Position numbers and translations under genes: made by a program. From an uncultured virus (IMG/VR IMGVR_UViG_3300042882_000732) (lineage: Duplodnaviria; Heunggongvirae; Uroviricota; Caudoviricetes), in the IMG/VR virus record IMGVR_UViG_3300042882_000732, positions 1 through 64,000 of that record: a stretch of 64,000 bases of DNA. One strand, written 5' to 3'. Below are positions 16,209-33,374 of the stretch, piece after piece; position 1 is the first letter of the stretch; each line of letters opens with the position of its first letter. The notes under the pieces are model-generated. The model did not search any database. It saw only the letters and a program-made list of their open reading frames with translations, and was not told the DNA's origin.

Positions 16209-19200
16209 TTATGATGGTCGTCCCATAATACTTGGTTTAGCGGCACTATTCATGCCTCCTTCAAAAACAGTTTTATCATATTGCATGACGGTGTCTTGGG
16301 CAATATTTTTTGAACTAACAGAAGTATTGTCGTATATATTTTTTTCCATATTACCTTTTATAGATTCTAAACCAATATGGTGAAGTGATGTTGTTTGCGT
16401 AACATTAGCAGATAATGACGTTGGTATAGCATTTGCATGTTCTCCAAATTGAGCGGTGGCTGTTTGGAATGTGTTGATAGATGATGACAAACTTTTTTGT
16501 GCAGCACCAAACTGTTCAGTAAAATTAGCCCCAATTTGCTCTGTATATTCATTAAATTGACCAATAGCATTTGTAACAGCATCCTGTATGGATGATGATA
16601 TATTAGCCGTATCTATACTAACATTATTAGATACACCACCGGCAGAGGATGCGGTTTGTTTAAGTGTCTGTACAACATTAGAAAGAGGTGCTAGTTGTGA
16701 GGCTCCACCAGAAGAATTCATGCCAGTATTTGATAATTTATTTAATAGTTCTGGTAATATATTAGAATTTGATATACTAGCCATTGATCGACCACCAGCA
16801 GCAAGATATTGTGGACCGACTATACCTCCATTGGCCAAATAATTAACAATTCCGCCTCTATTTAAATGACCACTATTAATAGCATTGAGAAGTGGCATAT
16901 GTTTTTTAGTAGCTTGTCTATTTATTACAAATTCTCCTTTAGTTAACATTGCAGGAGTATCATCTGTAGTTCCATTGTTAGCATTAATAAAAGCTCCATT
17001 ATTAGCATATACTAATCCTCCCTTACTATATCCATGGAATTTCATTAATTTTTTTAAAATATTTTCTGCTCTTTTATTACCCTTTACCTTTTCCATATGT
17101 TGCATCAAGGTGCTTAGTAGTTCATATGGGGCTTTTTTGATTTGACTTGCAGAATATCCTTTGCCTCCTGTTATAGCAACTAATCCCTTCGGATCATCAA
17201 CAAATGACTCGATTTCCTTCATTAGTCCTGATAGCTGTATTTTTTTACCTCCAAAAGGATCACCCTTCATTCCAGCAGTTTTAGTTTGAAAAGAGTGGGC
17301 TAATTCATGCTGTACTACTGATGTTTTTGTCTTAGCGTCCTTAAATATCATTTTGTTACCTGAAGTAACCATGCCGTCTGGGGCTTTTACCGGACCTATG
17401 GTCTTAGCAACTTTCTTTTTGGCCTCAGCTAGTGCTTTAGGATCAACAGATACCGATTGCGGTGTAGACTTTTCAACAAATTCTGACAAGAACTGATCTC
17501 TTTTTGCTGGAGTAGCATAATCAGCCAAATCACTAGCTAAATTCTCTTGAACTTGTCTTAGTGTTTTGGTATCAGTAACATCTATAACTTCTGGAAGTGG
17601 TCGTTTGATTGGTAATGTTGTTGCATCTGGTTTTGTTCTGGCCATAAATTCTTCAGCAGTAACTCTTGGCTTGCTGGCTCTGGCAGCAGATCTTGCTTCT
17701 TCTGCACGTTTTGTATATTCTGCTGCCGTAATTCTGGGCTTAGCAGCTGATTTGGCAGCTTCTTGTAAAGGATCTAATATTGGTTGTGATTGTTTTGCTG
17801 ATTTACCAAGTTTAGACATATCCATAGGGTCACTGCGTAATGACGGCACTTTTACTTCTCTCAAATCTTTTAATGATCTAGATAAAGCTTCCCCTCTGCT
17901 TAACCGTCCCATGGACCCTATAGAACCTGTAGCCTCTGAAGGTATTGGCAATTTTTCTACATAATTTTGGATCATTTTAGGAATAGTAGATTCTGTGGCA
18001 CTGGCTATGGATGATCTTTGTGCTGCTTCGTAGGCTCTTTGCGAAACTTTATAGGCTTTTTCTGCAGCTTTGTCCATATCATCCAATCTGCCAGCAACGC
18101 TTCTAACTTTACCAGCTCCAGGAATTGGTAATGGCATAACCGAATCAGCAGTAACATCTCTAATCACATTAGCGGCCCTAACTACGGGCCCTAAAGGTCC
18201 AGCTTCAGAAACATTTCTTTCGTCGAATATCATTCCTGCTGAATTATTTTTAAGTAAAGGATCTGCTTCTAATCCAAAAGGAATACCGGCATAGGTGGCT
18301 AATCTGCCTGTTTGTTCAGCTAGTCTATTAATATCTGAAATACCAGCACCAACAGAATCAGACGCTTGACTTAATGCCTTATCGCCAAAAGCTCTAGCCA
18401 TAGTATCGTCATAACCAAGCACCTTTTGAGTTTCTGCAATGCCTAATGATGCCCCACCCAACAATGCTCCCCCACCTCCGCCAATAATTCTAAAGGGACT
18501 AGTAGCTACTGCAGTAAGATCTCCAATGTATCTGCCTGTAGTTCCAAGACCTCTATAAAAAGAATTACTACTATTTTCAAAACTAAAATCTTTATTTCCA
18601 GCTAGTTTTTCTCTTTCTCTATAAGCATCACGACGAGCATTAATGTCTTTCATGTCTTGACTATCATTACGAGCACGATCTTGTGGTAATGCTCCAACAA
18701 TAGCTTGTGTTAAAGTATCTCCAACATAAGCAGCATTTCCTAGTGGCCCCTCATAATTTTTAGCCCTATCGAATGTTTCTCGTGTTTTTTTCTCTTCGTC
18801 TTTTATTCTTGTATTTTCATTATTACGCCCTACTGATGGATCCATTCTAGTAGCTCTACCAAGAGCATCGGCTGCTGTATCTCCATATGTGGATCTAAAT
18901 GCCGCAGCATATTGTGGTTCCGTCATATTAACAACATGGGAAACCCCTGCCTTAAATCCTTCAGCAGATGCCTCATTTTCTTTTCTTATTCTTGCTTGTC
19001 TGTCAAGATAATCTTGTCTTGCTCCTTGAGCAGCAAAGTAGTCCTCAGCACTAGTATATTGTTTAGCTCCCCATCTTTCAGCATTTTTTCTAGATGAGTA
19101 ATATGATTCTGGCTGACGACCAATAGGATTCATGTTACCAGAAAAATTAACTCTTGCGCTATCTCTTTCTCTTTTTCTCTTGTCTATTTCTTCGTTTGAA

Positions 19201-22200
19201 AAGTCTGGTCGTCCATCTCCGTCGTTGTCTGCTCTGGCTTCATTTAGTCTTTGTTCATAATAGTCTATTACTTTTTTACCTTCGTCTTTTCTTTTTTCCA
19301 CTATGCTTTTTGATCTTTCAGCCTGTGATTGTATGGCATTTTTAGCTGCTGCATTGGCTTCTGCTAATGTTCCGCCATTATTAGCAACTGCATTAAATGC
19401 TCGTCTGCTTGCTGAAGATCCAATAAATTCTTTGGTTAGTCGTTCAGTTTTAGTGGTTTGATCACCAGATGTTGGGGTGGCTATGGAATAATCTGGTGTT
19501 TTTTTATTTAAGGCTTGGTTTATAATATTTGTAGTTAAAGCTGCTTGTCTTTTTTCTCTTGCTGGATTATTCTCTATAGGTCTCTCTATAGGTCCACCAA
19601 AAAGTATTTGTTCCAAAAGGTCTGCTGTTTCTTGATCAGCCTCTGTTGACAATCCTAATGCTAATCCAGCCATTTTTCTCTTTTTAGCCTGATTAGCCTC
19701 ATAAGCTCTATTATTAGCTGTACGATTAACCATTCCTTCTGAAGGATTTCCTGTTTGAACACCTGAAGAGACTGCAGGATCGGCTATGTCAGGTCTTGCA
19801 CTCTGATTTATTCTAGCGACAGTTGCTGGATCAATAGGGTCGGGTTTTCCTCCGTTACTAGTTATTGGAGGCAACGCAGCACTAAATGATAGGGCTCGTA
19901 AACTTCCTCTATTTCTAGGATCAGAGCCTAACTCTTTTAGGGCTGATCTTTCTTCTGATGTTATCTCATTAGACTGAGCACCTTTACGATAGGCACTATT
20001 TACTAAAGAAGAAATATTACGATCTTTTTCTACAGTATACGGGCCTACCTCTCTTTTTATTTGATTAGATTTTAAAGTTGCATATTCTGTTTCTTCTTCT
20101 GAGCTTATTCCTTTGCTTCCTTTAAGCCATAATGATCGTCTTCGTGACTCTTCAGATTTAATTTTTTTTCTCTCATTGATAGTTTCTTGTGTTGGTCCAA
20201 TCTTTATTGCCGCTCCTCTGCCCCAAGGTATTTTTGTCATATCGGGTAGAGGAACTGCTACTGGAGCTGGTTGCTCCATAGAGCTTTGAGTCATTTGATT
20301 ATTTGATGCTTCCGTTTCAGCTTCAGCCGCACTAGCTTTTTCAAATCTTTCTTTAGCTCTTTTCTTTTCTTCATTATAAAAATTAACCCCAACAATACCA
20401 GAGTTAGGATCCTCCTTTATACTGCCATATCCTGCATCGTTAGCACTTCTGAGTTGTGCGTCATTCTGTCTATTATTATAATTATCCCATCTGTTTTGAA
20501 ATTCTGGTTCATATTTTTTAGTTTCTGATTGTCTTTGTTCTTCTGTCATACTTTGCCATTTATTACTACCTACCTGAGATTCTGCCCAACTAGATGATGT
20601 TCTAGAAACTACCTCATCAGGTCTTCTTCCGGCTGCTTCTGACATCATCCATGATTCTTTTTGAGCATCTATTCTTTCTTCTTTTCTTTTTTGTACTTCG
20701 CCACCATTGGCTAAATAATTTACTGGCCCTCCTTTACTATATCCGAATGGTCTAGTAAAATATGCTTGTCTATAATCCATTTGTCCAAATGATCTTGTTA
20801 GATATAATTCTTTTCGACGTTGATAAATCTGTCGTTCTTCATCTGTAATTGTTCCATCTTTATTTAGATCTATATCTTCGTCAATATTAGTTCCTGCTTT
20901 ACCACCCTTTTGTAAATAAACCACTCCACCCTTACTATAATTTCCACTATTAATAGCTTTCAATAATGGTAAATGTTTTTGTGTAGACTTAGAATTGATA
21001 ACAAATTCGCCAGGACTTAACATGGCAGGAACAGTGTCGGTACCTTTAGGCTTAAAATCAATAAGCTTTCCACTACTAGCATATATTAATCCTCCAGATG
21101 ATCTGGCCGCAGCAGGAGCAGGAACAGCCACCCCAGGATTAACTATTCTGTTACCAGCAGCGTCCATACCTATATTAGCATTATTCAGATTTCCTTCGAT
21201 GCTTGCTCTTAAATCATCAATACTAATACGTAAATTATCATTAGAATTTTTTAGTATGGATTGTGATTCTAATAAAGCCAGTTCTCCTTGTGCTTTTGTA
21301 GCATCGGCTCTTAATCCAACAGCTTCTAAATATCTTTCAGCAGCCTGTTGCATAGCAGGATCTGCTTTGCGATCCTCTAGGACAGCCAATGACTGTTGAA
21401 CAAGTGGATTATTTATCATTCCACTTTCTATCGCCATTTGTTTGGTTACTTGTAATTGCTGTTTTTGAAAATATTCTGCTACTGCTTGATCAGCATCTAC
21501 TCCTGGTCTTCCTCGGTTCTGAGCATATTGATTTCTTATCTGTAATTCTTGAGCAGCTCTGAATCCGGGATCCTGCATCAATGATAGTGTTTCTTTTCTT
21601 TGATTAGCAAGAACAGTATTTCCGGCGCGAGTTGCTTCTCTTACATTTCCGGTCTTAAATAATGTTTCATTAAATGCTTTTCTAGCGTCTCTTTGATTAT
21701 ATGCACTATTGAGTCCTCCAGAAAGATTTCGTTGTAATCTAATAAAACTTTGATTAAGTTTATCTGCTTCTTCTGGCGTATTAGTTAATAATTGATTAAC
21801 AAAATTTTGTCGATTATTCTGTAATTCTGCAGTATTTTGCAAGTTGTTGAAAGCTTTATCTACTAATTCTGTACTATTAGCAAGCATATCTAATGCTTCT
21901 CTATTATCTCTTAATTGATCATCTAATTTATTAAGCTGTTCAACATTGTTACGCAAAGCGTCTTTATCTGTAAGGGTATTTTGTTGATTCTGTAGAGTAT
22001 CTCTTTGCTCAGCAAGCATTATTTGTCTATTTTTAATTCCCTGAACAGTTGTTTCACCTCCTGCTAAACCACCAACATCACCCATAATTCTATTAAATTG
22101 TTCATCATATGTTTCACCGTATCCACTCAAGACTTCTCTTAGGTTCATATTGCCTTCGTTAGAGATTTCTCTTGATCTTCTAAAATAGTTTTGAGATTCT

Positions 22201-25200
22201 TTAGCTGCTTTGCTAGCTTCATTCAAGCCCTTAGCAAATTTATCTAATGCTCCTTCTTTGAATGATGATAGACCTTTTATAGAATCTAATAATTTTTTAC
22301 CAAAATCACCTAAAACACTAGTACCTTCTTCTAGTTCTTTTCTAAATTCTGATACTTGCGTAGTATTATCGGCATTGTTATCTTTAGCTTTTTTAGCTAT
22401 AGTTTCTATCCTGGCCGTAGCTATTTGTTTTAATTCATCTTTTTGTTGTCTAGATAAATTAGCATTATTTTCTATTTCATTTTTAGCAGTATCAACTGCT
22501 GCTTTTTTAAGTTCATCTACTCCTGAGCCGGCGCTCTTGTCTAAAACAGTTGCTATGCTTTTTGTTATATTTTTTGGTATGTTTTGTTGTAATTGAGCAC
22601 CGCCAATCAGTTGTTTTCTAAGTCCGTCACTTAATCCTGCTGTGGCACTTTGTAGTGCTGCAGTAAATTCTGCTTCAGAATATGCATTGGGATTTTCTAA
22701 AATATTTCTTTCTCTTAGTTTTGGACCAGAACCTCTGGACTCTCCACGTAATGATGATGCATATTGGTTTGCCGCTTCTACTCTAGCATCAGACTCAAAT
22801 GATATTCTATTAACAGATTCATTTACTATATCTGCTATTTTATCAAAACTTGCTGCTAATCTTCGTCCTGCTTTATCAGCAATTTCCATAGCTCTTGCTA
22901 ATTTTGCAGCTTCTTGAGAAGCTTTTGCTAATTCATCATTAGCTAAAAATGCTTGTTGCGCTGCTGTACCAGCAATAGCTTCTTTACCTTGTGGTCCGGC
23001 AGCCATATATAAAGCTCGTTTTTCAGAATCAGCTAGAATCATGCCTTTTATAGATTCTCTAACTATATTTCCAGCTTCATTAGTAGGATCCATAATTTGA
23101 TCATTAGTGAATCCTTTTGCATATAGCCTTTCTAGATCGGTATATCCAGCATTAGCTATTTTTTGAAAATTTTCTGCTTCTTTTTGAGCATCAACTCTTG
23201 CTTCTTCCATGCCATAAGAGCCTTGTTTGGATTTTGCAAGCGTTACAGGGTCCATGTCTTGGTAGAATGGATTCATACCAACTCCAATTTCTCCAATGGC
23301 CAACAATATTCCTCTGCCAAAATCTGACCAATTACGCTCCGTCTCTGCTTTATTCTTTCCTGTTATTCCTGTATCTGCTGTGCTTTCCAGGGCAGTATCT
23401 GTTAAGCTTTTAATGGTTGATGCTGTTTTTGCTCTAAGTTCAACGTTATTAGCATCTCTGCTTAATTTTTCCAAAGCATTTGATAGATTATCACTAGCAG
23501 CAGATAATTTATCATTTAATAAAGCTCTTGCCATTTCTTGAGCTGCTTTTTTGGCAGTGCCTGAGAAATCATATACAGCATCAGCGCCAGCATACAGTGC
23601 TGTGCCTATAGCAGCAGCAGCTCCTAACATAGGATTTATAGCAGCTAATTGTGCTGATGTTGTTAGACCAACAGACAGTGTTGTTGCTGCTTTATCGATT
23701 CTTGCGCCTGTATCTGCCGCTTGTATTTTGCCTTTATCGGTTTTAGTATCAAATAATGCTGATGCTATGTTGTCTCCTTGTCCAGCAACTAATCCTGCCG
23801 CTAATCCAATGTCGCCCAATCCTCTCTGCATACTTTTTCCTAGATCTCCAGTAAAGTATCTTTCTCTAAATGCTCGATTAATAGGACTATTTCTAGTATC
23901 CATTAATCCAGCAGCTCCAACACCTCGTTCTCCTCTCATTTTTGCCAGATCATTTATAGCTTCTCTTCGTTTGCTAACTTCTTCCTGTGCTAATTTTTTA
24001 GCTTCCTCTGCAGAAGCAACGCTAATACCTCTAACAGTTCCAGCATTCTTATACTCTTCCATTCTCATAGCTATTAACTGCTGATCCATTTGTCTGAGAG
24101 TTTTTCTATCTCTCATAGAATCAGAAATATATTTTTGAATATCATTTCCAGTTATATTTAGATTTTTTAATTCACTTTCTGTTATATTCCCTTTTATGCC
24201 AGTAGAAGTTTTTGTTCCTGTAGCCGCTGCTGTAGCTCTAGAAAATGCTTGCGTTTTAATATCATTTAATTCAGAAGATATAGCTTGGGCGACCTGATCA
24301 GCTAAGTCTGATGGAGATATTGGTTGTTTGGATGATGATACTATATCAGCTTCTATAGCCTTTTTTCTTTTATCTATTAATCGTCGCTCTTCTTTTTCTG
24401 CTAAAGATAATATTTTTTGTTGCGTAGCTCCTGATCCTAATTTTTTACCAACTGAACTTTCTTTAAATCCAGACTCTAAAAATTGACGATTAGTAACATC
24501 AATAAGTCCTTTATTTCTAATATTAGACAATGCCTTTTCAGCTTCTATAATTTTATCAATAGATGCTCCACTAATTTTTAATCTTTCTAGATCTTTATTA
24601 CCAGCTTCTAATACTGCTTGTATAGATAATTGTTTATTTTCATTTAATAAACGATTTAAATACTTCATGCCGTCTCCGGCATCATAAAGAGTGTCCACAA
24701 ATGCTTTTGTATCTTGCAGAATAGATGGGTCTACAGCTATTGTACTAGTATCTATTGAATTTGGGCGATTATTAGTAATATTTTGTGTTCTTCCTAAATT
24801 ACTTGCTATGCTTTGTAATCCAGAAAGAAAGCCATCTACACCTCCACCTAAAGCAAATCTTTGTACTCCTCCTACAATTCCTCCTTTATTGTATCCTTGT
24901 ATTTTATCTGCTTTATTTAATTTTTCTAACTTGCCATATCCTATTTTTTCTGCTGCTTTTTTATTAACAACAAATTCACCAGGAGTTAATAATGCTGGTA
25001 CAGTATCCTGCGCAGACCCACCATTTGCAAATTTTCTTTTATTCTGCATCTTCTTTAGAAGAGACGGATCTATATTTGGACCATATTCATATAGCAGAGA
25101 GGATGCCATATTATCGGCAACTTCTTGTATTTTAGAAAGATTACCAGCTTGCTTAAATTCTGCATAATTACCAATGTTACTACTTTCTTGTTTTAGTCCG

Positions 25201-28200
25201 CCTAATATATTGTATCCAAAACCATTCTTTCGTCTGGAAATTCTAAAATTAATATCTGGATATTGATTTAATATTTTTTGTCTTATTTTTTCAAATTCAT
25301 TTTCTTTACCAAATGCCATTCCTCCATCTTTAAACTGCTGAACTTTCATTCCTTCTATATGACGAATATTTCCACCTAATAATTTATCTTCTTGATCTTT
25401 ACTAAATATTCTATCAATATCATCTATTCTAAATTTTGAAGTTTGTGGGAGAATGAATTCTTTTTCTATTCGTGTTGCTGATCGACTTCTGCTTAGAAAA
25501 TCTGCTCCGCTTTTTCCAGAGACAGGGTCTATATATTTTGATAATGCTTTTATAATATCTTCTTCTGTGGAGGTATCAAATATTGCCTTATCAACATCAA
25601 TAGATGGAATATTTTTATTTCTAATGATACTCAACATTGCACTAGAACCATTTTCTGGCTGAAATACACTAGCTGTATCCGGGGATTCACTAGTTGATAA
25701 TAATGAGCCATTTAAATTAAAGTTTTTACCAATAGCATCAGAAATATCTTTATTAGAGTTTAAAGGATTATTAATTTGAGTTAAAATGGTTTTTAATTTA
25801 CCACCAGCAACAGTGGAATATAATTTACCAGAACGCTTTGAGCCACTCATTGATTCTTGGCTAGTAAACATTTCCAATAAATCTTTTGCAGCATTCTTTG
25901 TGGCATCATACGCCTTTGGAGGATCAGCATGGAAAGTTTTAAGATATTCCATGAAAGAATCATTATCTTCTAAATATCTATTTATAAATTCGCTATCAGT
26001 TCCACCACCAGGAAATGGTCCTGTTCTGTATTTGGCTAATGAGACTAGTTGTTGTGGAGTATATACTTCTCCGCCGTCAGCAAAAGCTGTTACTTTTTCT
26101 GGATCAGGAATGCCGTATTGTTGTCTAAAATATTTTTGAAATTCTTCAACAGCTTTACCTCTACTATTACTATCTATTGTTCTTTTAACTTCTGTTGGAA
26201 TATCAGGATCGATACCAAATATTTTTGCTGCTTTAGGTCCGATACCCATTGGAAAGTCAATTGGTCTTGTTCTTAATGCATCGTCTAATATTGTGGCATC
26301 TGCTGATCCAAAAATTTGTTCTAGTAAAGCACCCTCAATATTTCCTTGTCCTAATGTTTCTCTTTGTTTTTTAGTTAATTCTTTAGGAGTAATACCAAGA
26401 AGCTTTGATGCTCCTTGTACTATTTCTGCTGTTTGTCCACTAAGATAATCAATAACGTTTTGGAATTCTGTTGGTAGTCCTCTTTGTACTATTGAAGCGT
26501 CTATTGATCTTTCTTGGCCAGACGGATCGACTCCAAGATTCCAAGTCTCTGGACCCAATAATCCAGTATATCCTAGCGGATTTAATCCAACTAATCCTAA
26601 TTGTTTGGAAGATAACACAGCATTAGTTGTATCTTCTAGAGCTGTAGCCTTTTGAATTCCTTGTGATTCATTAAATTTGTCTATTAGATAGTCTCTTGTT
26701 GCAATATAGTAAGCGAGCTTATCTTCTTTTGTTTCTGGTCTAAAAGCAGAATTCCAGTATTTTAATTTTCCTCCTTCGGCTGTATCTCTTACTGTTTTTC
26801 CTGAGAATGGGCCAAAACTTGGATCATTTGGTAATCTTTGAGTTCCAAATCTTTTTAGAATCTCTGATCCTTGTGTTGGTAATATTCCAGAAGACTTTTT
26901 GACCTGGGTGGCTTTTTCTACATTTTTTAGTATTGCCTCTTCTAGTCCAGAAGGCATAGCTGTTGGAACTCCACCAAACTCACCAGCCATCTGTTCTGAA
27001 ATTTGTGCTGCTATGGCCTCTCTGGTTATGTCTGATGGTTGCGCAGATACGGCGGATTTTCTTGATGGGTCTAACCCATAAGTTTCTGGATATTTGGCAG
27101 ATAGGGCGCTTATTATATTAAATGCTCTATAGCCGAATGCTCCTTTAGATACTCTATCTCTTTTGTCTCTTATCTGCTTAACTTGCTCAGCTATTTCTGG
27201 ATAATTTTTCTTTAGATCAGCACTAACATTACCATATGGACCACCAGGAGCATTTGATAATATTTCTGTAACCTCAGCATTGGATCGTACTTTATCTTGA
27301 TCAACAAACTTTTGTATTTCTTCGATGAGCATAGGAACCATAGTGCTACGATTACGTAATTGTGCTCTATTGCCCATTAATATTGATGCTATATCAGGAT
27401 TCATTAAACTAGTAAGTGTTTTATCGTCACCATTAAATAATGCGTCTCTAACTGCAGTAGCACTAATATCTTCTATTCTAGGAATATCTGTAACGTCTAT
27501 TCCTGCTCTTTGGTATTTGCCCAATGTTTTATCGTCTTTACCAGAAGTTATTGCCATGGCTCCTTTTAATCTGGCGAATTTTCTTCTATCTCCAGCATCA
27601 GTAACTTCCATAAATTTTGGTAAACCACCACCCGTCTGGCTTTGAGTGCTAATCATAGCATTTCCAAAATTCATTTGGCTAAATAAGGTTCTTATGTCTG
27701 ATGGGAAAATACCATATCGTGCAGCGTGGTCTATGCCTTCTTTATCAACAATCATTGGAAGGTCAGGAGCAACACTAACAAGAATATCTTCTAAAGAAGA
27801 GTTTGGGTTCTTTGCTAACATGTTTTCTAATAAAGTATCTAAAGCTCCTCTATGGCCTCTTGTTGGTGGGGCAAAACCACCCATATAAAATCCACCAGCC
27901 TGAACTATTTCTGGTAGTTCGCTTTCTCTTTTACGTCTTAAACCGAAACTATCTTTTTTTCTTCCTAATACTGTGGCTCTTTTGCCAAGTTCATCTCGTA
28001 ATATGGTTTCTTCCAGACCAAAATCAATATCAGCTGCTCTTGTGGTTCCTGGTTTACGACCATACAATCCTTCTCCTGTAATGTCTCTGCTCTCTCTATT
28101 TGACCTAACTCTATCTTGTTCCTCTCTGCTATTAGAGCTTAATACATATGCTCTATCAACATCTTTTAAATAAGCATCTAATTTAGTCTGACTAGCTGTC

Positions 28201-31061
28201 GATGTTAATACTATAACTTCATTAACTTTGTCTATATCTTCAGGCGTTAATATTTGAGAGCGAATTGTTTTTCTTAAAGTAGCATCATCATTAGCTCCCT
28301 TTCCGGTTGCTAAACTGCTTTTTCCACTTCCAGCAGCTCCAGCAATAGCTCTAAACCTAGATAGCGATCCACTTTTTCTAGCATTGCCTGCCAATTCTCC
28401 AAGTTTTGTTGTATAGTCACTAACATCAGTTATTCCAAGCTTTTCCATTGCTGGCCTAACTATCGCCGCATTAGCCTCATCTCTTAGTACGTCCGTATCA
28501 ACTACTCCAATTTTTCTTTCTACTTTTCCTCCAACCATGAACTTAGCCAATCCTTTAGTCTCTGTCATTTTCTTAATAAAACCAATATCAGAGATAGTTT
28601 TTAATGGCCGGGAGTCGTCTTGTATTATATTCCCTGAACTGTTAAACCTATCCTTAGATCCTGCTGGCATATAGTTAAACATATAATCATCTTTAATAAC
28701 CCTATCCCATGATGACTTATTAGTATTGCCGAATCCTGAATTTTTCTTCATTATCTCTAGTCTATTTGCTAGTTTATCTGCTTGAATAATGTCTTGACCT
28801 TTTTTAGTTCCACTATATTTTGCAACATTCTCTCCTACTAATTTTTTATTAAGAGCACCAATTTCCGCCATTGGTCTGCCATAGTAATCTACTTTATTAG
28901 CGTCGATAAAAATTTTAGCTAATTTTTCTTTACCAAGTCCACTTATAAAATCTATAGTTATATCTTTGGCTCTTTTGCCTTTCTCTCTATTACTAGCATA
29001 TGCCGGACCTTTTCCTCCTTGACTAGCATACTCTTCTCTTTCTTTTTTTGATGCTTTAATTTCAAAAGCATCTATTCCTTCAAGTCTGGATGTGACTTTA
29101 AATTTACCTTTTTCACTAGGATAAATTAAATCGCCAGTTAGTTTTTTAAAACGTTTATTAACTAGTGTTTGTGTTGGATCAACCAATAAATTTATACTAT
29201 CTGCATCATAAGCTTTGAGCCTACCAGCATACTGCTTGTTAGACTTAGAATATTCTTGAACATCAATATCGTCATATAGTTTACCTCCACCCCCAAATCT
29301 TTTTCTTCTATTTGATTTTCCTGCTCGTATACTTCCACCACTTCCATACTTATTCATACTATGAAGACTATCAGTACCAATAGTTTCAACAGCTTTTTTA
29401 CGTATAACAAATTCTCCTGGCTCTAACATTGCTGGTACAGTATCTCCACTACCAGTACCAGGAACAACACCACCTCGTGCGAATTTTCTTATAACTCCGC
29501 CATTAGCTTTACCATCTGGTCCTCTTTTAACTCCTGTGGCAAATCCTGTAGTAAATTCTGTTAATGCTTTAAATCCCTTAAATGCTGCAAGTACTGCTAA
29601 TGCTGGTAGAATTCCTTTAACAGCATCTGCTACTTTTATCAAACCACTAGTTAGAGACAACGCTCCTCTGATTAAACTTTGAAATCCTTTGGATTGACCT
29701 ATTTCACGAAATAGTGAGAAAAATTCTTCACGAACTTTACTTATTTGATTAGCTAAACTTAATTGTGCTGTTGCTGCATCTTTAGCTAGCGAACCTTGTC
29801 CTTGTTGAGCAACTTTTAACGCCTGTTGAGCCACACTAAATTGTTGAATTAATGGAATAACTTTACCAATTTGTCTAAATCCACCAAGTTCTTCAACTAT
29901 TCTTGAAAAGTCCAAACTTCTAGGGTCTATTTTACCTAATCCTTTACTTAACAATTCGACAGCCTTATACGCTCCAACGAACTTACCCTCAGCATCTGTT
30001 AAGTTAACACCAAACTCTTTTAGGGCGTCTATCGTTGTTCCTCTTTGGATACGAGTAAATATTGTTCGTAATCCAGTAGCAATAGTTTCAGCGCTTTCAC
30101 GGGTAGTTGCTCTAACACTGGTAAATACCGAAATAAATTCATTTAAAGCGTCTTTTCCTTCGCTTACCCCTTTACTCGCAGTAGCGAATACGCTACCTGT
30201 TCTTTGCACGGCGGTAATGATGTCACTAGATTCTACTGCGAACCTTGCTGCCACGGTATTAACCGCACCTAATGATGCCTCCAAATCAGCAGCACTAATA
30301 CCAAACTGTCTCATTATAGCAATACTACCTTCCACAGTCTCATTCATATTATCAAATGACGGAGCTAAACTACTAAGTGCTAAGGCTTTTAAAGCTTTCT
30401 CAGTTTCTCTGGCACTTAAACCAGCCTGAGCTAATGTTGATGCTACTTGAGTTAGCTCTTTAGAACTAACACCAAATTCTACAGCTAAATTACTAATTTG
30501 AGATTGTAGTTTGGATAATCCGGCAGCAGATTCTCCAGTAACCTGTTGTAATTTTACAAGCTCTTTATCATAATCAATAAAAGCCTGTATACCATTATTT
30601 ATACTATTTGTTACTCCATATATAACACTTGTAACAGCACTAAATGCAACGAATCTTCTAACTGCTAAACCAGCTTGCTTGCCGAATTCCTGCATCTCTG
30701 TTGCGGCATTTTGCAATCCTCCAGATGTTGATGAGGATACTTTATTTAATTTAGCAATTGCTGATGAAGTTTGATTAATTTGTTGAGGGACATTGTTAAT
30801 TTTAACAGAATTTACGCTATTACCAAAAGCCTTTATTGCTGATGTGGCAGCATTGGCTGATTTGACAGTTGAGGCAAAATTAGCATTCAAAACTTTTAAA
30901 GAAGACGATAATGCTGCAACATTTTTTGATGCTGCCGGATCAAGTTTAAATTGTACATTTGCATTAAGAGCGCCAAGATCTTTTTTAATTTGAGCAGCTA
31001 TTTGCTTAACGTTTGTTGGACCTTTAAGATTCAACTGTGCTGTTAGATTAAAAGTTGCCAT
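16209..31061 (-). CDS. Giant tape-measure protein (TP901-family N-terminal domain) carrying multiple enzymatic cargo domains
   Basis: The N-terminal about 500 aa has TMP-like content (YDKELVKLQQVTG, FGVSSKEL, TTRESAETIATGLRTIFTRI, VEELGGFRQIGK). It also has hydrophobic Ala/Gly segments, long helical regions, and lies downstream of the tail tube and chaperone-like genes. Confidence 0.88.
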   Translation of the reverse strand: MATFNLTAQLNLKGPTNVKQIAAQIKKDLGALNANVQFKLDPAASKNVAALSSSLKVLNANFASTVKSANAATSAIKAFGNSVNSVKINNVPQQINQTSSAIAKLNKVSSSTSGGLQNAATEMQEFGKQAGLAVRRFVAFSAVTSVIYGVTNSINNGIQAFIDYDKELVKLQQVTGESAAGLSKLQSQISNLAVEFGVSSKELTQVASTLAQAGLSARETEKALKALALSSLAPSFDNMNETVEGSIAIMRQFGISAADLEASLGAVNTVAARFAVESSDIITAVQRTGSVFATASKGVSEGKDALNEFISVFTSVRATTRESAETIATGLRTIFTRIQRGTTIDALKEFGVNLTDAEGKFVGAYKAVELLSKGLGKIDPRSLDFSRIVEELGGFRQIGKVIPLIQQFSVAQQALKVAQQGQGSLAKDAATAQLSLANQISKVREEFFSLFREIGQSKGFQSLIRGALSLTSGLIKVADAVKGILPALAVLAAFKGFKALTEFTTGFATGVKRGPDGKANGGVIRKFARGGVVPGTGSGDTVPAMLEPGEFVIRKKAVETIGTDSLHSMNKYGSGGSIRAGKSNRRKRFGGGGKLYDDIDVQEYSKSNKQYAGRLKAYDADSINLLVDPTQTLVNKRFKKLTGDLIYPSEKGKFKVTSRLEGIDAFEIKASKKEREEYASQGGKGPAYASNREKGKRAKDITIDFISGLGKEKLAKIFIDANKVDYYGRPMAEIGALNKKLVGENVAKYSGTKKGQDIIQADKLANRLEIMKKNSGFGNTNKSSWDRVIKDDYMFNYMPAGSKDRFNSSGNIIQDDSRPLKTISDIGFIKKMTETKGLAKFMVGGKVERKIGVVDTDVLRDEANAAIVRPAMEKLGITDVSDYTTKLGELAGNARKSGSLSRFRAIAGAAGSGKSSLATGKGANDDATLRKTIRSQILTPEDIDKVNEVIVLTSTASQTKLDAYLKDVDRAYVLSSNSREEQDRVRSNRESRDITGEGLYGRKPGTTRAADIDFGLEETILRDELGKRATVLGRKKDSFGLRRKRESELPEIVQAGGFYMGGFAPPTRGHRGALDTLLENMLAKNPNSSLEDILVSVAPDLPMIVDKEGIDHAARYGIFPSDIRTLFSQMNFGNAMISTQSQTGGGLPKFMEVTDAGDRRKFARLKGAMAITSGKDDKTLGKYQRAGIDVTDIPRIEDISATAVRDALFNGDDKTLTSLMNPDIASILMGNRAQLRNRSTMVPMLIEEIQKFVDQDKVRSNAEVTEILSNAPGGPYGNVSADLKKNYPEIAEQVKQIRDKRDRVSKGAFGYRAFNIISALSAKYPETYGLDPSRKSAVSAQPSDITREAIAAQISEQMAGEFGGVPTAMPSGLEEAILKNVEKATQVKKSSGILPTQGSEILKRFGTQRLPNDPSFGPFSGKTVRDTAEGGKLKYWNSAFRPETKEDKLAYYIATRDYLIDKFNESQGIQKATALEDTTNAVLSSKQLGLVGLNPLGYTGLLGPETWNLGVDPSGQERSIDASIVQRGLPTEFQNVIDYLSGQTAEIVQGASKLLGITPKELTKKQRETLGQGNIEGALLEQIFGSADATILDDALRTRPIDFPMGIGPKAAKIFGIDPDIPTEVKRTIDSNSRGKAVEEFQKYFRQQYGIPDPEKVTAFADGGEVYTPQQLVSLAKYRTGPFPGGGTDSEFINRYLEDNDSFMEYLKTFHADPPKAYDATKNAAKDLLEMFTSQESMSGSKRSGKLYSTVAGGKLKTILTQINNPLNSNKDISDAIGKNFNLNGSLLSTSESPDTASVFQPENGSSAMLSIIRNKNIPSIDVDKAIFDTSTEEDIIKALSKYIDPVSGKSGADFLSRSRSATRIEKEFILPQTSKFRIDDIDRIFSKDQEDKLLGGNIRHIEGMKVQQFKDGGMAFGKENEFEKIRQKILNQYPDINFRISRRKNGFGYNILGGLKQESSNIGNYAEFKQAGNLSKIQEVADNMASSLLYEYGPNIDPSLLKKMQNKRKFANGGSAQDTVPALLTPGEFVVNKKAAEKIGYGKLEKLNKADKIQGYNKGGIVGGVQRFALGGGVDGFLSGLQSIASNLGRTQNITNNRPNSIDTSTIAVDPSILQDTKAFVDTLYDAGDGMKYLNRLLNENKQLSIQAVLEAGNKDLERLKISGASIDKIIEAEKALSNIRNKGLIDVTNRQFLESGFKESSVGKKLGSGATQQKILSLAEKEERRLIDKRKKAIEADIVSSSKQPISPSDLADQVAQAISSELNDIKTQAFSRATAAATGTKTSTGIKGNITESELKNLNITGNDIQKYISDSMRDRKTLRQMDQQLIAMRMEEYKNAGTVRGISVASAEEAKKLAQEEVSKRREAINDLAKMRGERGVGAAGLMDTRNSPINRAFRERYFTGDLGKSMQRGLGDIGLAAGLVAGQGDNIASALFDTKTDKGKIQAADTGARIDKAATTLSVGLTTSAQLAAINPMLGAAAAIGTALYAGADAVYDFSGTAKKAAQEMARALLNDKLSAASDNLSNALEKLSRDANNVELRAKTASTIKSLTDTALESTADTGITGKNKAETERNWSDFGRGILLAIGEIGVGMNPFYQDMDPVTLAKSKQGSYGMEEARVDAQKEAENFQKIANAGYTDLERLYAKGFTNDQIMDPTNEAGNIVRESIKGMILADSEKRALYMAAGPQGKEAIAGTAAQQAFLANDELAKASQEAAKLARAMEIADKAGRRLAASFDKIADIVNESVNRISFESDARVEAANQYASSLRGESRGSGPKLRERNILENPNAYSEAEFTAALQSATAGLSDGLRKQLIGGAQLQQNIPKNITKSIATVLDKSAGSGVDELKKAAVDTAKNEIENNANLSRQQKDELKQIATARIETIAKKAKDNNADNTTQVSEFRKELEEGTSVLGDFGKKLLDSIKGLSSFKEGALDKFAKGLNEASKAAKESQNYFRRSREISNEGNMNLREVLSGYGETYDEQFNRIMGDVGGLAGGETTVQGIKNRQIMLAEQRDTLQNQQNTLTDKDALRNNVEQLNKLDDQLRDNREALDMLANSTELVDKAFNNLQNTAELQNNRQNFVNQLLTNTPEEADKLNQSFIRLQRNLSGGLNSAYNQRDARKAFNETLFKTGNVREATRAGNTVLANQRKETLSLMQDPGFRAAQELQIRNQYAQNRGRPGVDADQAVAEYFQKQQLQVTKQMAIESGMINNPLVQQSLAVLEDRKADPAMQQAAERYLEAVGLRADATKAQGELALLESQSILKNSNDNLRISIDDLRASIEGNLNNANIGMDAAGNRIVNPGVAVPAPAAARSSGGLIYASSGKLIDFKPKGTDTVPAMLSPGEFVINSKSTQKHLPLLKAINSGNYSKGGVVYLQKGGKAGTNIDEDIDLNKDGTITDEERQIYQRRKELYLTRSFGQMDYRQAYFTRPFGYSKGGPVNYLANGGEVQKRKEERIDAQKESWMMSEAAGRRPDEVVSRTSSSWAESQVGSNKWQSMTEEQRQSETKKYEPEFQNRWDNYNNRQNDAQLRSANDAGYGSIKEDPNSGIVGVNFYNEEKKRAKERFEKASAAEAETEASNNQMTQSSMEQPAPVAVPLPDMTKIPWGRGAAIKIGPTQETINERKKIKSEESRRRSLWLKGSKGISSEEETEYATLKSNQIKREVGPYTVEKDRNISSLVNSAYRKGAQSNEITSEERSALKELGSDPRNRGSLRALSFSAALPPITSNGGKPDPIDPATVARINQSARPDIADPAVSSGVQTGNPSEGMVNRTANNRAYEANQAKKRKMAGLALGLSTEADQETADLLEQILFGGPIERPIENNPAREKRQAALTTNIINQALNKKTPDYSIATPTSGDQTTKTERLTKEFIGSSASRRAFNAVANNGGTLAEANAAAKNAIQSQAERSKSIVEKRKDEGKKVIDYYEQRLNEARADNDGDGRPDFSNEEIDKRKRERDSARVNFSGNMNPIGRQPESYYSSRKNAERWGAKQYTSAEDYFAAQGARQDYLDRQARIRKENEASAEGFKAGVSHVVNMTEPQYAAAFRSTYGDTAADALGRATRMDPSVGRNNENTRIKDEEKKTRETFDRAKNYEGPLGNAAYVGDTLTQAIVGALPQDRARNDSQDMKDINARRDAYREREKLAGNKDFSFENSSNSFYRGLGTTGRYIGDLTAVATSPFRIIGGGGGALLGGASLGIAETQKVLGYDDTMARAFGDKALSQASDSVGAGISDINRLAEQTGRLATYAGIPFGLEADPLLKNNSAGMIFDERNVSEAGPLGPVVRAANVIRDVTADSVMPLPIPGAGKVRSVAGRLDDMDKAAEKAYKVSQRAYEAAQRSSIASATESTIPKMIQNYVEKLPIPSEATGSIGSMGRLSRGEALSRSLKDLREVKVPSLRSDPMDMSKLGKSAKQSQPILDPLQEAAKSAAKPRITAAEYTKRAEEARSAARASKPRVTAEEFMARTKPDATTLPIKRPLPEVIDVTDTKTLRQVQENLASDLADYATPAKRDQFLSEFVEKSTPQSVSVDPKALAEAKKKVAKTIGPVKAPDGMVTSGNKMIFKDAKTKTSVVQHELAHSFQTKTAGMKGDPFGGKKIQLSGLMKEIESFVDDPKGLVAITGGKGYSASQIKKAPYELLSTLMQHMEKVKGNKRAENILKKLMKFHGYSKGGLVYANNGAFINANNGTTDDTPAMLTKGEFVINRQATKKHMPLLNAINSGHLNRGGIVNYLANGGIVGPQYLAAGGRSMASISNSNILPELLNKLSNTGMNSSGGASQLAPLSNVVQTLKQTASSAGGVSNNVSIDTANISSSIQDAVTNAIGQFNEYTEQIGANFTEQFGAAQKSLSSSINTFQTATAQFGEHANAIPTSLSANVTQTTSLHHIGLESIKGNMEKNIYDNTSVSSKNIAQDTVMQYDKTVFEGGMNSAAKPSIMGRPS
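17080..17400 (-). other. HExxH zincin-like metallopeptidase motif region within TMP
   Basis: SVVQHELAHSFQ (HELAH at 17295-17309) with downstream APYELLS glutamate; boundaries approximate. Confidence 0.55.
25340..26065 (-). other. VIP2/C3-like ADP-ribosyltransferase domain within TMP
   Basis: LAKYRTG...FINRYL, LYST (YRG position), LLSTSES, EKEFILP.TSKFRI; bounded by AFADGG and QFKDGG. Confidence 0.7.
26100..26400 (-). other. Possible PD-(D/E)xK nuclease-like domain within TMP
   Basis: GNIEGALLEQ...RPIDFP...PTEVKRT gives an E...D...ExK spacing. Confidence 0.4.
27380..27900 (-). other. HIGH-superfamily nucleotidyltransferase (NMNAT/cytidylyltransferase-like) domain within TMP
   Basis: GGFAPPTRGH (GxFxPxTxGH) and C-terminal ISATAVR (SxTxxR). 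Confidence 0.75.
27930..28370 (-). other. P-loop kinase-like domain within TMP
   Basis: Walker A AIAGAAGSGKSS; lid-like RxxxRxxR (RVRSNRESR). Confidence 0.65.
28815..29230 (-). other. Staphylococcal nuclease (thermonuclease)-like domain within TMP
   Basis: YDADSI (cf. DGDT), RLEGIDAFE (cf. RLxGIDxPE), DYYGRPMA (cf. DxYGRxLA), NKKLVGENVA (cf. NxxLVxxGxA). Confidence 0.75.
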
Positions 31062-31165: not shown

Positions 31166-32074
31166 TTATGAACTAACAGGCTCCGTAGATTCTGCAACAG
31201 TGCTTTTTGGTGGTTCAGAAACTGGGGGTTCTTTTGCTGTCTCTGTTTGTACTGCTGTTGGTTCATCTTTTTTGTCTTCTTCTAAAATAATTGGATTTCC
31301 ATTATCATCAAGGAACGGCTGAGGGTCAACCAGATAATCTCCATCAGAATTTACCTTGTTACCATATTTATCAACAAAATTCCCTTCTTCATCTATGAAT
31401 CTACCACTTTCATCTACTAGTCTACCTTCAGCATCAACGAGCCTACCTTTTTTATCAACAAGTCGCAATTTATCGTCAACAAATTTAAATTTCTTTAAGA
31501 ATTTGTTTTCTGGCAGATTGCTTTCATAGTCATTATCCAATCCATATAACATATTAGCCAAATTTTGCGCTCCTAACAAACCAACCTGATCGGTTGACCT
31601 ATTAAGATAATCTTCCATATTATTAAAGTATGGTTGTTTAGTATCATTATACACCACACAAACACTAACCAAATAATTAAACCTGGCATTATCAGCTTGA
31701 CCTTCGGCACTATGATTATCTAAACTAGTTCTAACACTAATTAGATCTCGTATCTCATCTCTAATGCCCTTCATTTTAATAGCTAGGTCTTTGGCTTCAT
31801 TTAAACTAAATCCACCCTTTGCTAGTCTTTTTTCACCGTCTAAAAGTTCTTTTTGTAAAGTGGTGAATTTAGCCTGTTTCTCATCATTCCATAAACCTTG
31901 ATCTTCTAAAAGATCGTCTAACTTTGCTCTTACAACACTTTTGCTTTTTATAGCATCAGTGAAAGCTTGATTATACACTTTTTGTGCTTCTCTTTGATCA
32001 TTTAATGATGGTGTCTTGACAACAAATTCTTTTTCTGTACCGTCTATAGTAACCTTAAAATTTTTAGTTTTCAT
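31166..32074 (-). CDS. Putative tail assembly chaperone
   Basis: Immediately upstream of the TMP; helical; C-terminal 7-residue DxxG(R/N)hh repeats and acidic tail; AGGAG RBS. Confidence 0.5.
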   Translation of the reverse strand: MKTKNFKVTIDGTEKEFVVKTPSLNDQREAQKVYNQAFTDAIKSKSVVRAKLDDLLEDQGLWNDEKQAKFTTLQKELLDGEKRLAKGGFSLNEAKDLAIKMKGIRDEIRDLISVRTSLDNHSAEGQADNARFNYLVSVCVVYNDTKQPYFNNMEDYLNRSTDQVGLLGAQNLANMLYGLDNDYESNLPENKFLKKFKFVDDKLRLVDKKGRLVDAEGRLVDESGRFIDEEGNFVDKYGNKVNSDGDYLVDPQPFLDDNGNPIILEEDKKDEPTAVQTETAKEPPVSEPPKSTVAESTEPVSS

Positions 32075-32357
32075 ATTTATCTCCTAGTTCCTTATTATTA
32101 AAATTATATGTTTGTTTAGTTTTATACGATCTATATACCACAGATGATAGAGTCTCCAATGCTAATCTTATTTGTTTATTTCCATTATTTAAAATAGAAT
32201 TTCTAGTATACTCCCAAAGATCTATGTATTCTTGCTGATCTGGTCCCGGTTCTTCCCACAAATGACCAAAAGATTGTTCGAATCTTGCTAATGAACCTAT
32301 CATAGTTGTTTTTAATCGTGTTTCGATTTCAGTAATTAGTTGTTGTTGATAATCCAT
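32064..32357 (-). CDS. Hypothetical protein (tail assembly region)
   Basis: 97-aa ORF coupled to its neighbours. Confidence 0.6.
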   Translation of the reverse strand: MDYQQQLITEIETRLKTTMIGSLARFEQSFGHLWEEPGPDQQEYIDLWEYTRNSILNNGNKQIRLALETLSSVVYRSYKTKQTYNFNNKELGDKYEN

Positions 32358-32360
32358 AAA

Positions 32361-33374
32361 TTAATTCCTATTTTTAGTCTCTTTTTGAATATCTGGTAAT
32401 TCTGTATGTTCTATATGTTGATATTTATTAATTACATGTTCTCTGTGAGCAATATCCATAATTGCTTCATCAGAATTCATTGACATAACTTCTTGGATAC
32501 CCTCATCAGAATCTGTAAAAATAAATACTTCTTGTGCTTTACCCAATTTATTATTTGTTTTTAACATCTCATCTTGTTTCTTTGATTTTTCTATTGCCCT
32601 ACGTTGTATTATCATCCATCCATCAAGCATATCATCATCATTGATAACATTATCTGTAGGTTTTTCTGGATGCTCATATACACTGTCATACATCATACTA
32701 TAACTGACTATAGTTAATTGTTCTTCTGTCCATTCTGATACTGCATTTTTAAATATATTAGTTTTTCCAACATTCCACAAAGATCTCCATAAATCAGATT
32801 TAGCAATTCTTCTATAGTCTGATACAGAAAGTCCGTGCTTGTCTATTTCTGATACAATATTAGTAAATTTATTTAATGAATTTTTTAATGATTTAAATTT
32901 ATCAAAAGCTTTTTTACCATTATGGTAAATGGTATTAACCATTATGAATTCATTTTTTATACTTTCAGCATATCCCTCTAGTGTTTGCATATAGTATGTT
33001 TGTTTGATTCCATTTAACTGACCTAGTTTGGCTCTTAAATTATTTAATTGTAATTTTGTTCTATTTGTTAGTTTTGCATTAAGTCTATTATTATATAATG
33101 ATACTTTAAGATTATCTATTTCTTGTTCTGATTTTTTCATAAATGCTGACATCCCAGGTTCCCACACCCCCATATATTGCATATATTTATCTAAATTTTC
33201 CAATCTGATCCACTCATTATACTTTTCATCATTAATAATAGATTCATAAATTAAATTAGCTTTATATTTTAATATTGGTTTAGGAAATGTCAATACATAT
33301 TTTTTTTTATTATAAGAAAATAGTAATTTCCCAGACAATATTCTATATATATCCCTCTCTAATTCTTGCACCAT
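32361..33374 (-). CDS. Hypothetical, possible tail assembly chaperone
   Basis: Between tail tube genes and TMP; YDSVYEHPEKP...DDDMLDGW motif; function positional only. Confidence 0.5.
   Translation of the reverse strand: MVQELERDIYRILSGKLLFSYNKKKYVLTFPKPILKYKANLIYESIINDEKYNEWIRLENLDKYMQYMGVWEPGMSAFMKKSEQEIDNLKVSLYNNRLNAKLTNRTKLQLNNLRAKLGQLNGIKQTYYMQTLEGYAESIKNEFIMVNTIYHNGKKAFDKFKSLKNSLNKFTNIVSEIDKHGLSVSDYRRIAKSDLWRSLWNVGKTNIFKNAVSEWTEEQLTIVSYSMMYDSVYEHPEKPTDNVINDDDMLDGWMIIQRRAIEKSKKQDEMLKTNNKLGKAQEVFIFTDSDEGIQEVMSMNSDEAIMDIAHREHVINKYQHIEHTELPDIQKETKNRN

What the first reader, a model, noticed from the sequence alone, without database searches (positions are those of the whole stretch)
16790..29515. 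About 20 [F/Y/L]-x-x-G-G motifs demarcate the TMP modules: candidate di-glycine cleavage sites
Seen: KANGG, KFARGG, KYGSGG, RFGGGG (about 29290), KFMVGG (about 28535), AFADGG (about 26078), QFKDGG (about 25328), KFANGG, GYNKGG, RFALGG, ARSSGG, NYSKGG, YLQKGG, GYSKGG x2, YLANGG x2, HLNRGG, YLAAGG. They fall at domain borders: the SNase-containing module lies between RFGGGG and KFMVGG, and the ART lies exactly between AFADGG and QFKDGG. Known: adenovirus and ASFV proteases and deubiquitinases cleave after GG. Inference: these are maturation sites releasing individual effectors and/or recombination joints for module swapping. No clan-CE protease is visible in this window, so the processing enzyme is unidentified.
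Basis: partly seen in the sequence, partly recalled or inferred. Interest (0 to 1): 0.88.

Follow-up and report, generated by a model that had tools for sequence, protein, structure and literature searches.

The report
Di-glycine joints in giant tape measure
A 4,950-residue phage tail "ruler" protein carries swappable enzyme modules separated by a short, strictly two-glycine signal that phage lambda's ruler also has near its unmapped cutting site; the signal really marks where modules are exchanged, but whether the protein is cut there is still untested.

Summary
The motif is real: [FY]xxGG occurs 14 times against 2.0 expected in this tape measure protein (TMP), and 1,493 against 257 in 120 relatives. 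It is not enriched in other phage proteins. Fourteen sites are the ends of four copies of a ~70-residue cassette (FAxGG…GEFV…YxxGG) that lambda gpH carries once, at 728-792. Five are lone copies. Relatives swap modules there, codon-exactly for the ART-like module. Selection acts on the protein: codons are free, and neither glycine is replaced, not even by turn-friendly Asn/Asp, so a partner with a narrow pocket probably reads it. Cleavage after GG by a deubiquitinase- or adenovirus-type enzyme is disfavoured: no such protease in two complete relatives, and proline follows GG at background rate. A cut between the glycines stays open (about 0.45), against an uncut docking or hinge role (about 0.35). 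Not every domain is separated, and much mosaicism in the second cargo slot ignores the motif. Crassvirus cargo protein C1 shows the same short motif without the cassette. The scan found this before, on near-identical DNA and in related TMPs.

The parts
16209..31061 (-). Giant tape measure protein, 4,950 aa
   Evidence: PF10145 E 1e-21; TIGR01760 103 bits, cut-off 28.8
29517..31061 (-). Conserved N-terminal ruler part, aa 1-515, free of the motif
   Evidence: 1 motif in 57,309 aa of family N-parts
29283..29516 (-). Cassette 1 (aa 516-593), joint 1: KANGG, FARGG, DTVPAML..GEFV, YGSGG, FGGGG
28533..29282 (-). Cargo module, SNase-like (aa 594-843); lead only
   Evidence: atlas; 9 of 9 homologues bounded by motifs on both sides within 25 aa
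28527..28541 (-). Lone motif FMVGG (GG at aa 844-845), joint 2
   Evidence: folded domain starts at the Val after GG
26076..28526 (-). 819-aa cargo block: P-loop kinase-like domain, HIGH-type nucleotidyltransferase-like domain, third unknown domain; no boundary motif inside
26070..26084 (-). Lone motif FADGG (GG at aa 1663-1664), joint 3
   Evidence: DNA homology with L098 starts at the Phe codon
25335..26069 (-). ADP-ribosyltransferase-like module with STS and E-x-E-type motifs; first Arg position not Arg across nearly the whole family
25320..25334 (-). Lone motif FKDGG (GG at aa 1913-1914), joint 4
   Evidence: DNA homology with L099/L100 ends right after the GG codons
25032..25319 (-). Unknown 100-aa cargo module
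   Evidence: 4 homologues, 3 with motif at the start, 4 at the end; absent from P0004
24843..25031 (-). Cassette 2 (aa 2011-2073), joint 5: FANGG, GEFV core, YNKGG, FALGG
21105..24842 (-). Conserved middle ruler part, about 1,250 aa
   Evidence: median 1,248 aa in 114 proteins
20901..21104 (-). Cassette 3 (aa 3320-3387), joint 6: RSSGG, GEFV core, YSKGG, LQKGG
20742..20900 (-). 56-aa module with an EF-hand-like loop
   Evidence: Pfam E 0.01; skipped in P0008, P0010
20700..20741 (-). Motif doublet YSKGG..YLANGG (aa 3441-3454), joint 7
17031..20699 (-). 1,228-aa cargo block, internally mosaic without motifs; HExxH metallopeptidase-like motif at 17295-17309
16791..17030 (-). Cassette 4 (aa 4678-4757), joint 8: YSKGG, GEFV core, LNRGG, LANGG, LAAGG
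   Evidence: HExxH module is followed by the motif in 11 of 11 homologues
16212..16790 (-). C-terminal 193 aa, counterpart by position of lambda gpHC (inferred)
   Evidence: last motif lies a median 153 aa from the end in 121 proteins

Best explanation
The motif ([FY>ML>KR]-[AS]-x-G-G-x-[VIA]) is a boundary signal read at the protein level. SHOWN: it derives from the ends of a ~70-aa cassette that ordinary TMPs such as lambda gpH carry once near the C-terminus; this family has multiplied it to punctuate two cargo slots between three ruler parts of nearly constant length; relatives exchange whole modules at it; both glycines are under strict selection. INFERRED: a partner with a narrow pocket reads it during tail maturation or ejection. 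The most likely partner is a protease that cuts between the two glycines (aromatic at P4, Gly at P1 and P1', Val at P3'), so that enzyme blocks, not always single domains, leave the channel-forming ruler and act in the host. Module exchange falls on the motif because only modules that keep a signal at both ends stay usable. The protease is unidentified.
For: Full consensus 742 observed against 10.6 expected; single replacements N-G 3, D-G 1, G-N 9, G-D 32, A-G 30, so turn-friendly residues do not stand in; GA, AG, GS, SG not enriched, spacing specific. Gly codons at 81 motifs of 6 genes match background, p 0.25. 61 of 133 block ends at >=90% identity away from cassettes lie within 15 aa of a lone motif, 4.3% expected. 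The kinase-like domain folds from the Val after GG onward; the motif itself is low-confidence, outside the domain. Cassette profile matches lambda gpH 728-792, E 1.7e-5, GG at 736-737; gpH loses about 14 kDa from this glycine-rich region, site and enzyme unknown (PMC12617516 passages). T5 pb2 and TP901-1 Tal shed enzyme domains by cleavage, Tal at a glycine-rich motif (passages). Motif confined to the TMP: 21 against 19.6 expected in 138 other ORFs of a complete relative. Length follows cargo (rho 0.93), hardly core (rho 0.21).
Against: No cut is shown. The published estimate for lambda gpH* is residues 1 to about 710 (range tried 691-730), upstream of GG 736-737. The 5,002-aa enzyme-bearing TMP of P23-45 is full-size in virions. 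Doublets 9 residues apart (134 of 194 short spacings) would release 8-12-residue peptides. In crAss001 C1 the resolved stretch 425-552 runs through two GG pairs, one aligned with a strict motif in a homologue. No protease gene of known Gly-Gly specificity was found. Low confidence upstream of GG may reflect non-homologous rows. Most block ends at lower identity are not at motifs (698 of 2,831).
Confidence: 0.45

Rival explanations
1. Uncut docking or hinge element: the motif binds a tail-assembly chaperone, the tube or tip, or the same motif of sister TMP chains, keeping cargo domains threaded in register; the TMP is delivered whole, or cut only once near the last cassette.
For: P23-45 TMP stays full-size with its enzyme. 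JBD30 authors predict residues 1022-1066, which is this cassette (E 0.036), to form a hook that anchors the TMP; their speculation (section 16). Nine-residue doublets and V/I at -6 (35%) and +3 (64%) suit short strands. GG pairs lie inside the folded portal-bound domain of crAss C1.
Against: A plain turn should accept Asn-Gly or Asp-Gly; these occur only in the cassette-internal copy (111 of 119 [FY]AxNG near a core) and not in the boundary consensus. The cassette alone gave only a weak model, pLDDT 63, pTM 0.28.
Confidence: 0.35
2. One reading: a clan-CE or deubiquitinase-like protease cuts after Gly-Gly and frees each effector singly.
For: Strict GG, tolerant next residue; domain starts two residues after GG.
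Against: Pro follows GG in 56 of 1,507 motifs (3.7%, background 3.7%; 43 contexts, 47 proteins) while it is depleted at the two x places (5 and 14); such enzymes cut poorly before Pro (recalled). No C48, C5, JAB domain in 4 records, 2 complete. Multi-domain blocks are not subdivided.
Confidence: 0.1
3. DNA-level recombination signal or mere scar of module capture, with no protein function.
For: Crossovers are codon-exact at the motif; 7 of 28 distinct DNA block ends lie within 30 nt of a motif, 6.5% expected, p 0.002; relatives encode RecA.
Against: Synonymous codons are free and in-register exact DNA runs between motif pairs are mostly 3-6 nt, at most 11; decayed forms are absent.
Confidence: 0.07
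4. The TMP's own HExxH metallopeptidase-like module processes the protein at the motifs.
For: Proposed role of MPTase domains in polyvalent proteins (PMC5512222 passages); one HExxH at aa 4585.
Against: 70 of 121 proteins have no HExxH yet keep the motifs; the module is itself swappable cargo.
Confidence: 0.03

Closest known systems
Phage lambda tape measure gpH and its maturation to gpH* plus gpHC (PDB 8IYK; PMC12617516)
   Same: One copy of the same cassette at 728-792 with FATGG and YATGG ends, about 120 aa from the C-terminus, in the glycine-rich region where gpH is cut.
   Different: Lambda has one cassette and no cargo; here four cassettes and five lone motifs bound enzyme modules. The lambda cut is estimated 6-45 residues upstream of the first GG.
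TMPs of JBD30, Douge, Chi (PDB 8RK3, 8ZDO, 8VJH)
   Same: Cassette matches at E 0.036, 2.7e-11 (two copies) and 0.29; JBD30 authors predict a two-helix hook there and speculate on a cut at 1066.
   Different: No cut shown; the Douge paper never mentions cleavage; no modular cargo slots described.
Thermus phage P23-45 TMP-fused RNA polymerase (10.1101/2022.12.01.518664)
   Same: A 5,002-aa TMP that carries an enzyme into the host.
   Different: One fixed N-terminal enzyme, found full-size in virions; I did not test it for the motif.
Polyvalent proteins of phages (PMC5512222)
   Same: Strings of unrelated enzyme domains (ART, metallopeptidase, nucleotidyltransferase) delivered with the genome.
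   Different: Not described as TMPs in the passages seen; release ascribed to MPTase domains, which 70 of 121 proteins here lack; no boundary motif seen in the passages.
Crassvirus cargo protein C1 (gp45; PMC10172136)
   Same: [FY]xxGG enriched in 7 homologues, 20 against 4.5 expected; strict motifs at 263 and 562 flank the resolved stretches 214-245 and 425-552.
   Different: Podovirus ejection protein; no detectable homology to the cassette (hhalign probability below 1%; PF25725 absent).
Adenovirus and ASFV Gly-Gly processing; TP901-1 Tal glycine-rich site
   Same: Glycine-pair signals at domain borders of virion proteins (adenovirus/ASFV recalled; Tal in PMC11409707 passages).
   Different: No clan-CE protease here; Pro tolerated after GG; Tal's motif has no aromatic anchor.

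Membership tests
TP901-type phage tape measure protein | TIGR01760 / PF10145 domain near the N-terminus | tested here: met
   103 bits against cut-off 28.8; PF10145 E 1e-21
TP901-type phage tape measure protein | Sets tail length | not testable with these tools
   No particle; core length near constant, median 1,932 aa, cargo 0-5,400 aa
Lambda gpH C-terminal cassette | Profile homology over FAxGG..GEFV..YxxGG | tested here: met
   E 1.7e-5 among 177,635 PDB sequences
Lambda gpH C-terminal cassette | Cut at or next to the cassette | not testable with these tools
   Site unknown even in lambda
Clan-CE / deubiquitinase-type Gly-Gly substrates | Cognate protease (C5, C48, JAB) in the genome | tested here: not met
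   0 of 4 records, 2 complete; a host enzyme or a remote homologue is not excluded
Clan-CE / deubiquitinase-type Gly-Gly substrates | Proline avoided right after GG (rule recalled) | tested here: not met
   56 of 1,507, equal to background
Clan-CE / deubiquitinase-type Gly-Gly substrates | Strict Gly-Gly with large residue upstream | tested here: met
Polyvalent proteins | Several unrelated enzyme domains in variable order in one virion protein | tested here: met
Polyvalent proteins | MPTase (HExxH) as processing hub | tested here: inconclusive
   Present in this protein, absent from 70 of 121
Crassvirus C1 cargo proteins | crAss_CARG1 domain or profile homology | tested here: not met
R-S-E ADP-ribosyltransferases (cargo module) | Arg, STS and ExE motifs | tested here: inconclusive
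   STS and ExE-type motifs present; first Arg in 1 of 31 rows with residues there

The most novel reading that the evidence does not exclude
Proteins that tailed phages eject first (lambda-type TMPs, the cassette-bearing gene of T4-like cyanophages, crassvirus C1) share one aromatic-x-x-Gly|Gly processing code read by an undescribed protease. Lambda gpH is cut at FATG|G (736/737), and this family has turned its ruler into an effector polyprotein by multiplying that site.
Probability: 0.25. Interest if true: 0.85.

Novelty: new variant of a known kind. Interest (0 to 1): 0.62.

Why it matters
The site and enzyme of lambda gpH cleavage have been open since 1974 (PMC12617516 passages). This family points to one peptide bond that a single mutation in lambda can test. 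If cut, a tape measure serves as a polyprotein that delivers several enzymes at infection, with a portable boundary code. If uncut, the motif still defines how 500-5,400 residues of swappable cargo are loaded in a tail. The cassette is in 31,370 protein representatives and has no Pfam or NCBIfam model.

Tried and rejected
Three-copy complex of the cassette: no answer, score 0.02, not evidence either way. Cassette model pLDDT 63 gave no match in pdb or pdb_via_wide. Cassette against crassvirus C1: not homologous; the first of these alignments was poor. Lambda gpK-like JAB or NlpC/P60 protease as enzyme: absent. Prohead protease: one weak S78 match, E 0.014, in 1 of 4 records; the head proteins lack the motif. 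Stand-alone ART homologues of 140-448 aa: one fragment only. Stand-alone cassettes: of 120 short hits listed I read 16 from longer contigs; most look like broken TMP pieces, one (P0289) looks whole, its locus was not found. PDB sequence searches with the ART-like and SNase-like modules found nothing. Protein self-BLAST printed nothing; DNA self-BLAST showed only the cassettes. Control with other GG dipeptides also showed some excess of block ends (15 of 49 against 15%), probably K/R/M variants of the motif. No sequencing-read tools were used; they cannot show proteolysis.

Full report
OBSERVATION. The finding lies in one ORF, 16209-31061 on the minus strand, 4,950 aa, a TP901-type tape measure protein (TMP) in the tail region of an uncultured phage record of 71 kb, about half complete. 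All listed words are there, 19 sites. [FY]xxGG occurs 14 times against 2.0 in shuffles, 0 of 2,000 reaching it; [FYL]xxGG 19 against 4.9. Twenty-one other window proteins hold 4 in 12,569 aa, and 138 non-TMP ORFs of the complete relative G001 hold 21 against 19.6 expected.

ANATOMY. Fourteen of the 19 sites are ends of four copies of a cassette, FAxGG..G.G..DTVPAML.PGEFV..K.A...IG...L..MN.Y..GG. Five are lone (aa 844, 1663, 1913, and the doublet 3444/3453). That makes 8 joints. They divide the protein into three conserved ruler parts and two cargo slots. In 114 of 121 proteins that could be partitioned, the medians are 520, 1,248 and 153 aa for the ruler parts; total length follows cargo (rho 0.93) and barely core (rho 0.21); a few rows are off because a cassette was missed. 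Motif density per 1,000 aa outside cassettes is 0.02 in the N-part, 2.8 in slot 1, 0.6 in the middle, 0.8 in slot 2. Cargo here: SNase-like (lead), a P-loop kinase-like domain (model pLDDT 81; best fold match zeta-toxin kinase, E 4e-4, TM 0.37) with a HIGH-type nucleotidyltransferase-like domain (phrog E 9e-4), an ART-like module, a 100-aa unknown, an EF-hand-like piece, and a 1,228-aa block ending in an HExxH domain.

FAMILY. The N-terminal 515 aa found 866 proteins; I analysed the best 120 listed. They hold 1,493 motifs against 257 expected, and the count rises with length (rho 0.80). Only Gly-Gly at this spacing is enriched (5.8-fold; GA, AG, GS, SG 0.9-1.3; spacing +3 2.5-fold). The full consensus [FY][AS]xGGx[VIA] is 742 against 10.6; replacing either Gly leaves N-G 3, D-G 1, A-G 30, G-N 9, G-D 32; the upstream place accepts F, Y, then M, L, then K, R, H. 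These counts are not independent events, as the proteins are related.

SWAPPING IS SHOWN. At 90% identity or more, 117 of 236 block ends lie within 15 aa of [FY]xxGG, 7% expected; away from cassettes 61 of 133 lie at lone motifs, 4.3% expected, falling to 698 of 2,831 at 60% identity. P0004 has the same ART-like module from motif to motif with different neighbours on both sides. At DNA level homology with L098 starts at the Phe codon of FADGG and homology with L099/L100 ends right after the GG codons. Of 28 distinct DNA block ends from 8 loci (3 gave no block), 7 lie within 30 nt of a motif, 6.5% expected; six ends in slot 2 do not. So the motif is the main but not the only place of exchange. 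Gly codons at 81 motifs match background (p 0.25) and shared DNA runs are short: the constraint is on the protein.

LINK TO KNOWN TMPs. A 72-row profile finds lambda gpH 728-792 (E 1.7e-5, GG at 736-737), Douge TMP twice (2.7e-11), JBD30 (0.036) and Chi (0.29), many TMP PHROGs, 185 named phage records, a gene in the baseplate cluster of T4-like cyanophage S-SM2 and 31,370 representatives. In passages of PMC12617516, gpH loses about 14 kDa from a glycine-rich C-terminal region; site and catalyst are unknown; gpH* is put at residues 1 to about 710, range 691-730. The first GG is thus near but just downstream of the estimate. Section 16 of PMC11445458 predicts a hook of two helices and a hairpin for the matching JBD30 residues and speculates on a cut at 1066; my model shows two helices at low confidence. 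T5 pb2 is cut between ruler and enzyme (passages) but did not match the cassette profile. TP901-1 Tal is cut at a glycine-rich motif (passages). The P23-45 TMP carries an RNA polymerase and is full-size in virions (passages).

IS IT CUT? Against a cut after GG: Pro follows GG in 56 of 1,507 motifs, equal to background, in 43 contexts. A cut between the glycines escapes this and puts the aromatic at P4, as for several viral proteases (recalled). Against any cut: doublets 9 residues apart, undivided multi-domain blocks, the P23-45 precedent, and no enzyme. C48, C5, JAB and NlpC/P60 are absent from 4 records, 2 complete. HExxH is missing from 70 of 121 proteins. Both complete relatives encode a trypsin-like and a subtilase gene side by side and a ClpP-like gene, away from the tail cluster (118 of 139 ORFs of G001 were scanned); these are candidates only.

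A WIDER LEAD. The atlas listed crassvirus cargo protein 1 as a distant look-alike (0.78, often chance). Seven C1 homologues hold 20 motifs against 4.5 expected, two of them inside a conserved micro-domain. In crAss001 gp45 strict motifs at 263 and 562 flank the stretches resolved in the tail (214-245) and at the portal (425-552), but the second stretch runs through two other GG pairs. The cassette itself is not homologous. The passages seen do not mention cleavage.

NOVELTY. Enzyme-bearing TMPs, TMP cleavage and polyvalent proteins (PMC5512222 passages; PMC1796659 passages) are known. I found no paper that describes this cassette as a repeat or the motif as a module boundary (searches; open-licence library only; I saw listings and passages, no supplements). 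Earlier notes of this scan report the same on near-identical DNA and on related TMPs and crassvirus cargo; they are not independent evidence. Tested here beyond their short summaries: codon-exact crossovers, the substitution and proline tests, the fold boundary, and the protease survey. Verdict: new variant of a known kind, interest 0.62.

Noticed in passing
window 25335-26069 (-) and 35 modules in 260 family proteins: ART-like cargo family keeps STS and ExE-type motifs but has Ser/Thr/Ala where the first catalytic Arg is expected (Arg in 1 of 31 rows); activity uncertain.
   Followed up: partly
window 27312-28526 (-): P-loop kinase-like domain (fold nearest zeta-toxin kinase) directly followed by a HIGH-type nucleotidyltransferase-like domain, each in about 80 of 260 proteins; recalls NadR-type NAD salvage pairs (recalled) and may serve nucleotide or NAD metabolism at infection.
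   Followed up: partly
window 17031-20699 (-): Second cargo slot is mosaic at places without any motif (aa 3505, 3576, 3613, 3661, 3753, 4442); aa 4161-4280 has no homologue among 120 relatives.
   Followed up: partly
G001:C1 1994-3386 and 32921-33493; G003:C1 195936-197358 and 216547-217038: Adjacent trypsin-like and subtilase genes, and a ClpP-like gene, in both complete relatives.
   Followed up: partly
window 41687-42646 (-): Protein with a proprotein-convertase P-domain in the tail gene region, also in G001.
   Followed up: no
P0289: 149-aa basic protein seen on 57 contigs with a YNDGG motif and a C-terminal cassette; looks like a stand-alone gene; locus not found.
   Followed up: partly
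L089:6678-8978 (S-SM2 gene 012) and L123-L202: T4-like cyanophages carry the cassette in the middle of 430-840-aa proteins of the baseplate hub cluster.
   Followed up: partly
L088:21988-24516 (crAss001 gp45) and L090-L095: Crassvirus C1 proteins are punctuated by the same short motif.
   Followed up: partly
window 29262-29519 (-): Cassette 1 reads as near-nonamer repeats (GGVIRKFAR GGVVPGTGS GDTVPAMLE PGEFVIRKK); 9 is the commonest short motif spacing.
   Followed up: partly
window 43564-44394, 61220-62206, 2219-4873 (-): Sulfotransferase, GDP-mannose dehydratase and an FGE-sulfatase-like domain among virion genes; G001 has a long sugar-modification cluster.
   Followed up: no
window 31166-33374 (-): Three ORFs (337, 97, 302 aa) just upstream of the TMP, at the usual place of tail assembly chaperones; no family match; frameshift site not examined.
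   Followed up: no
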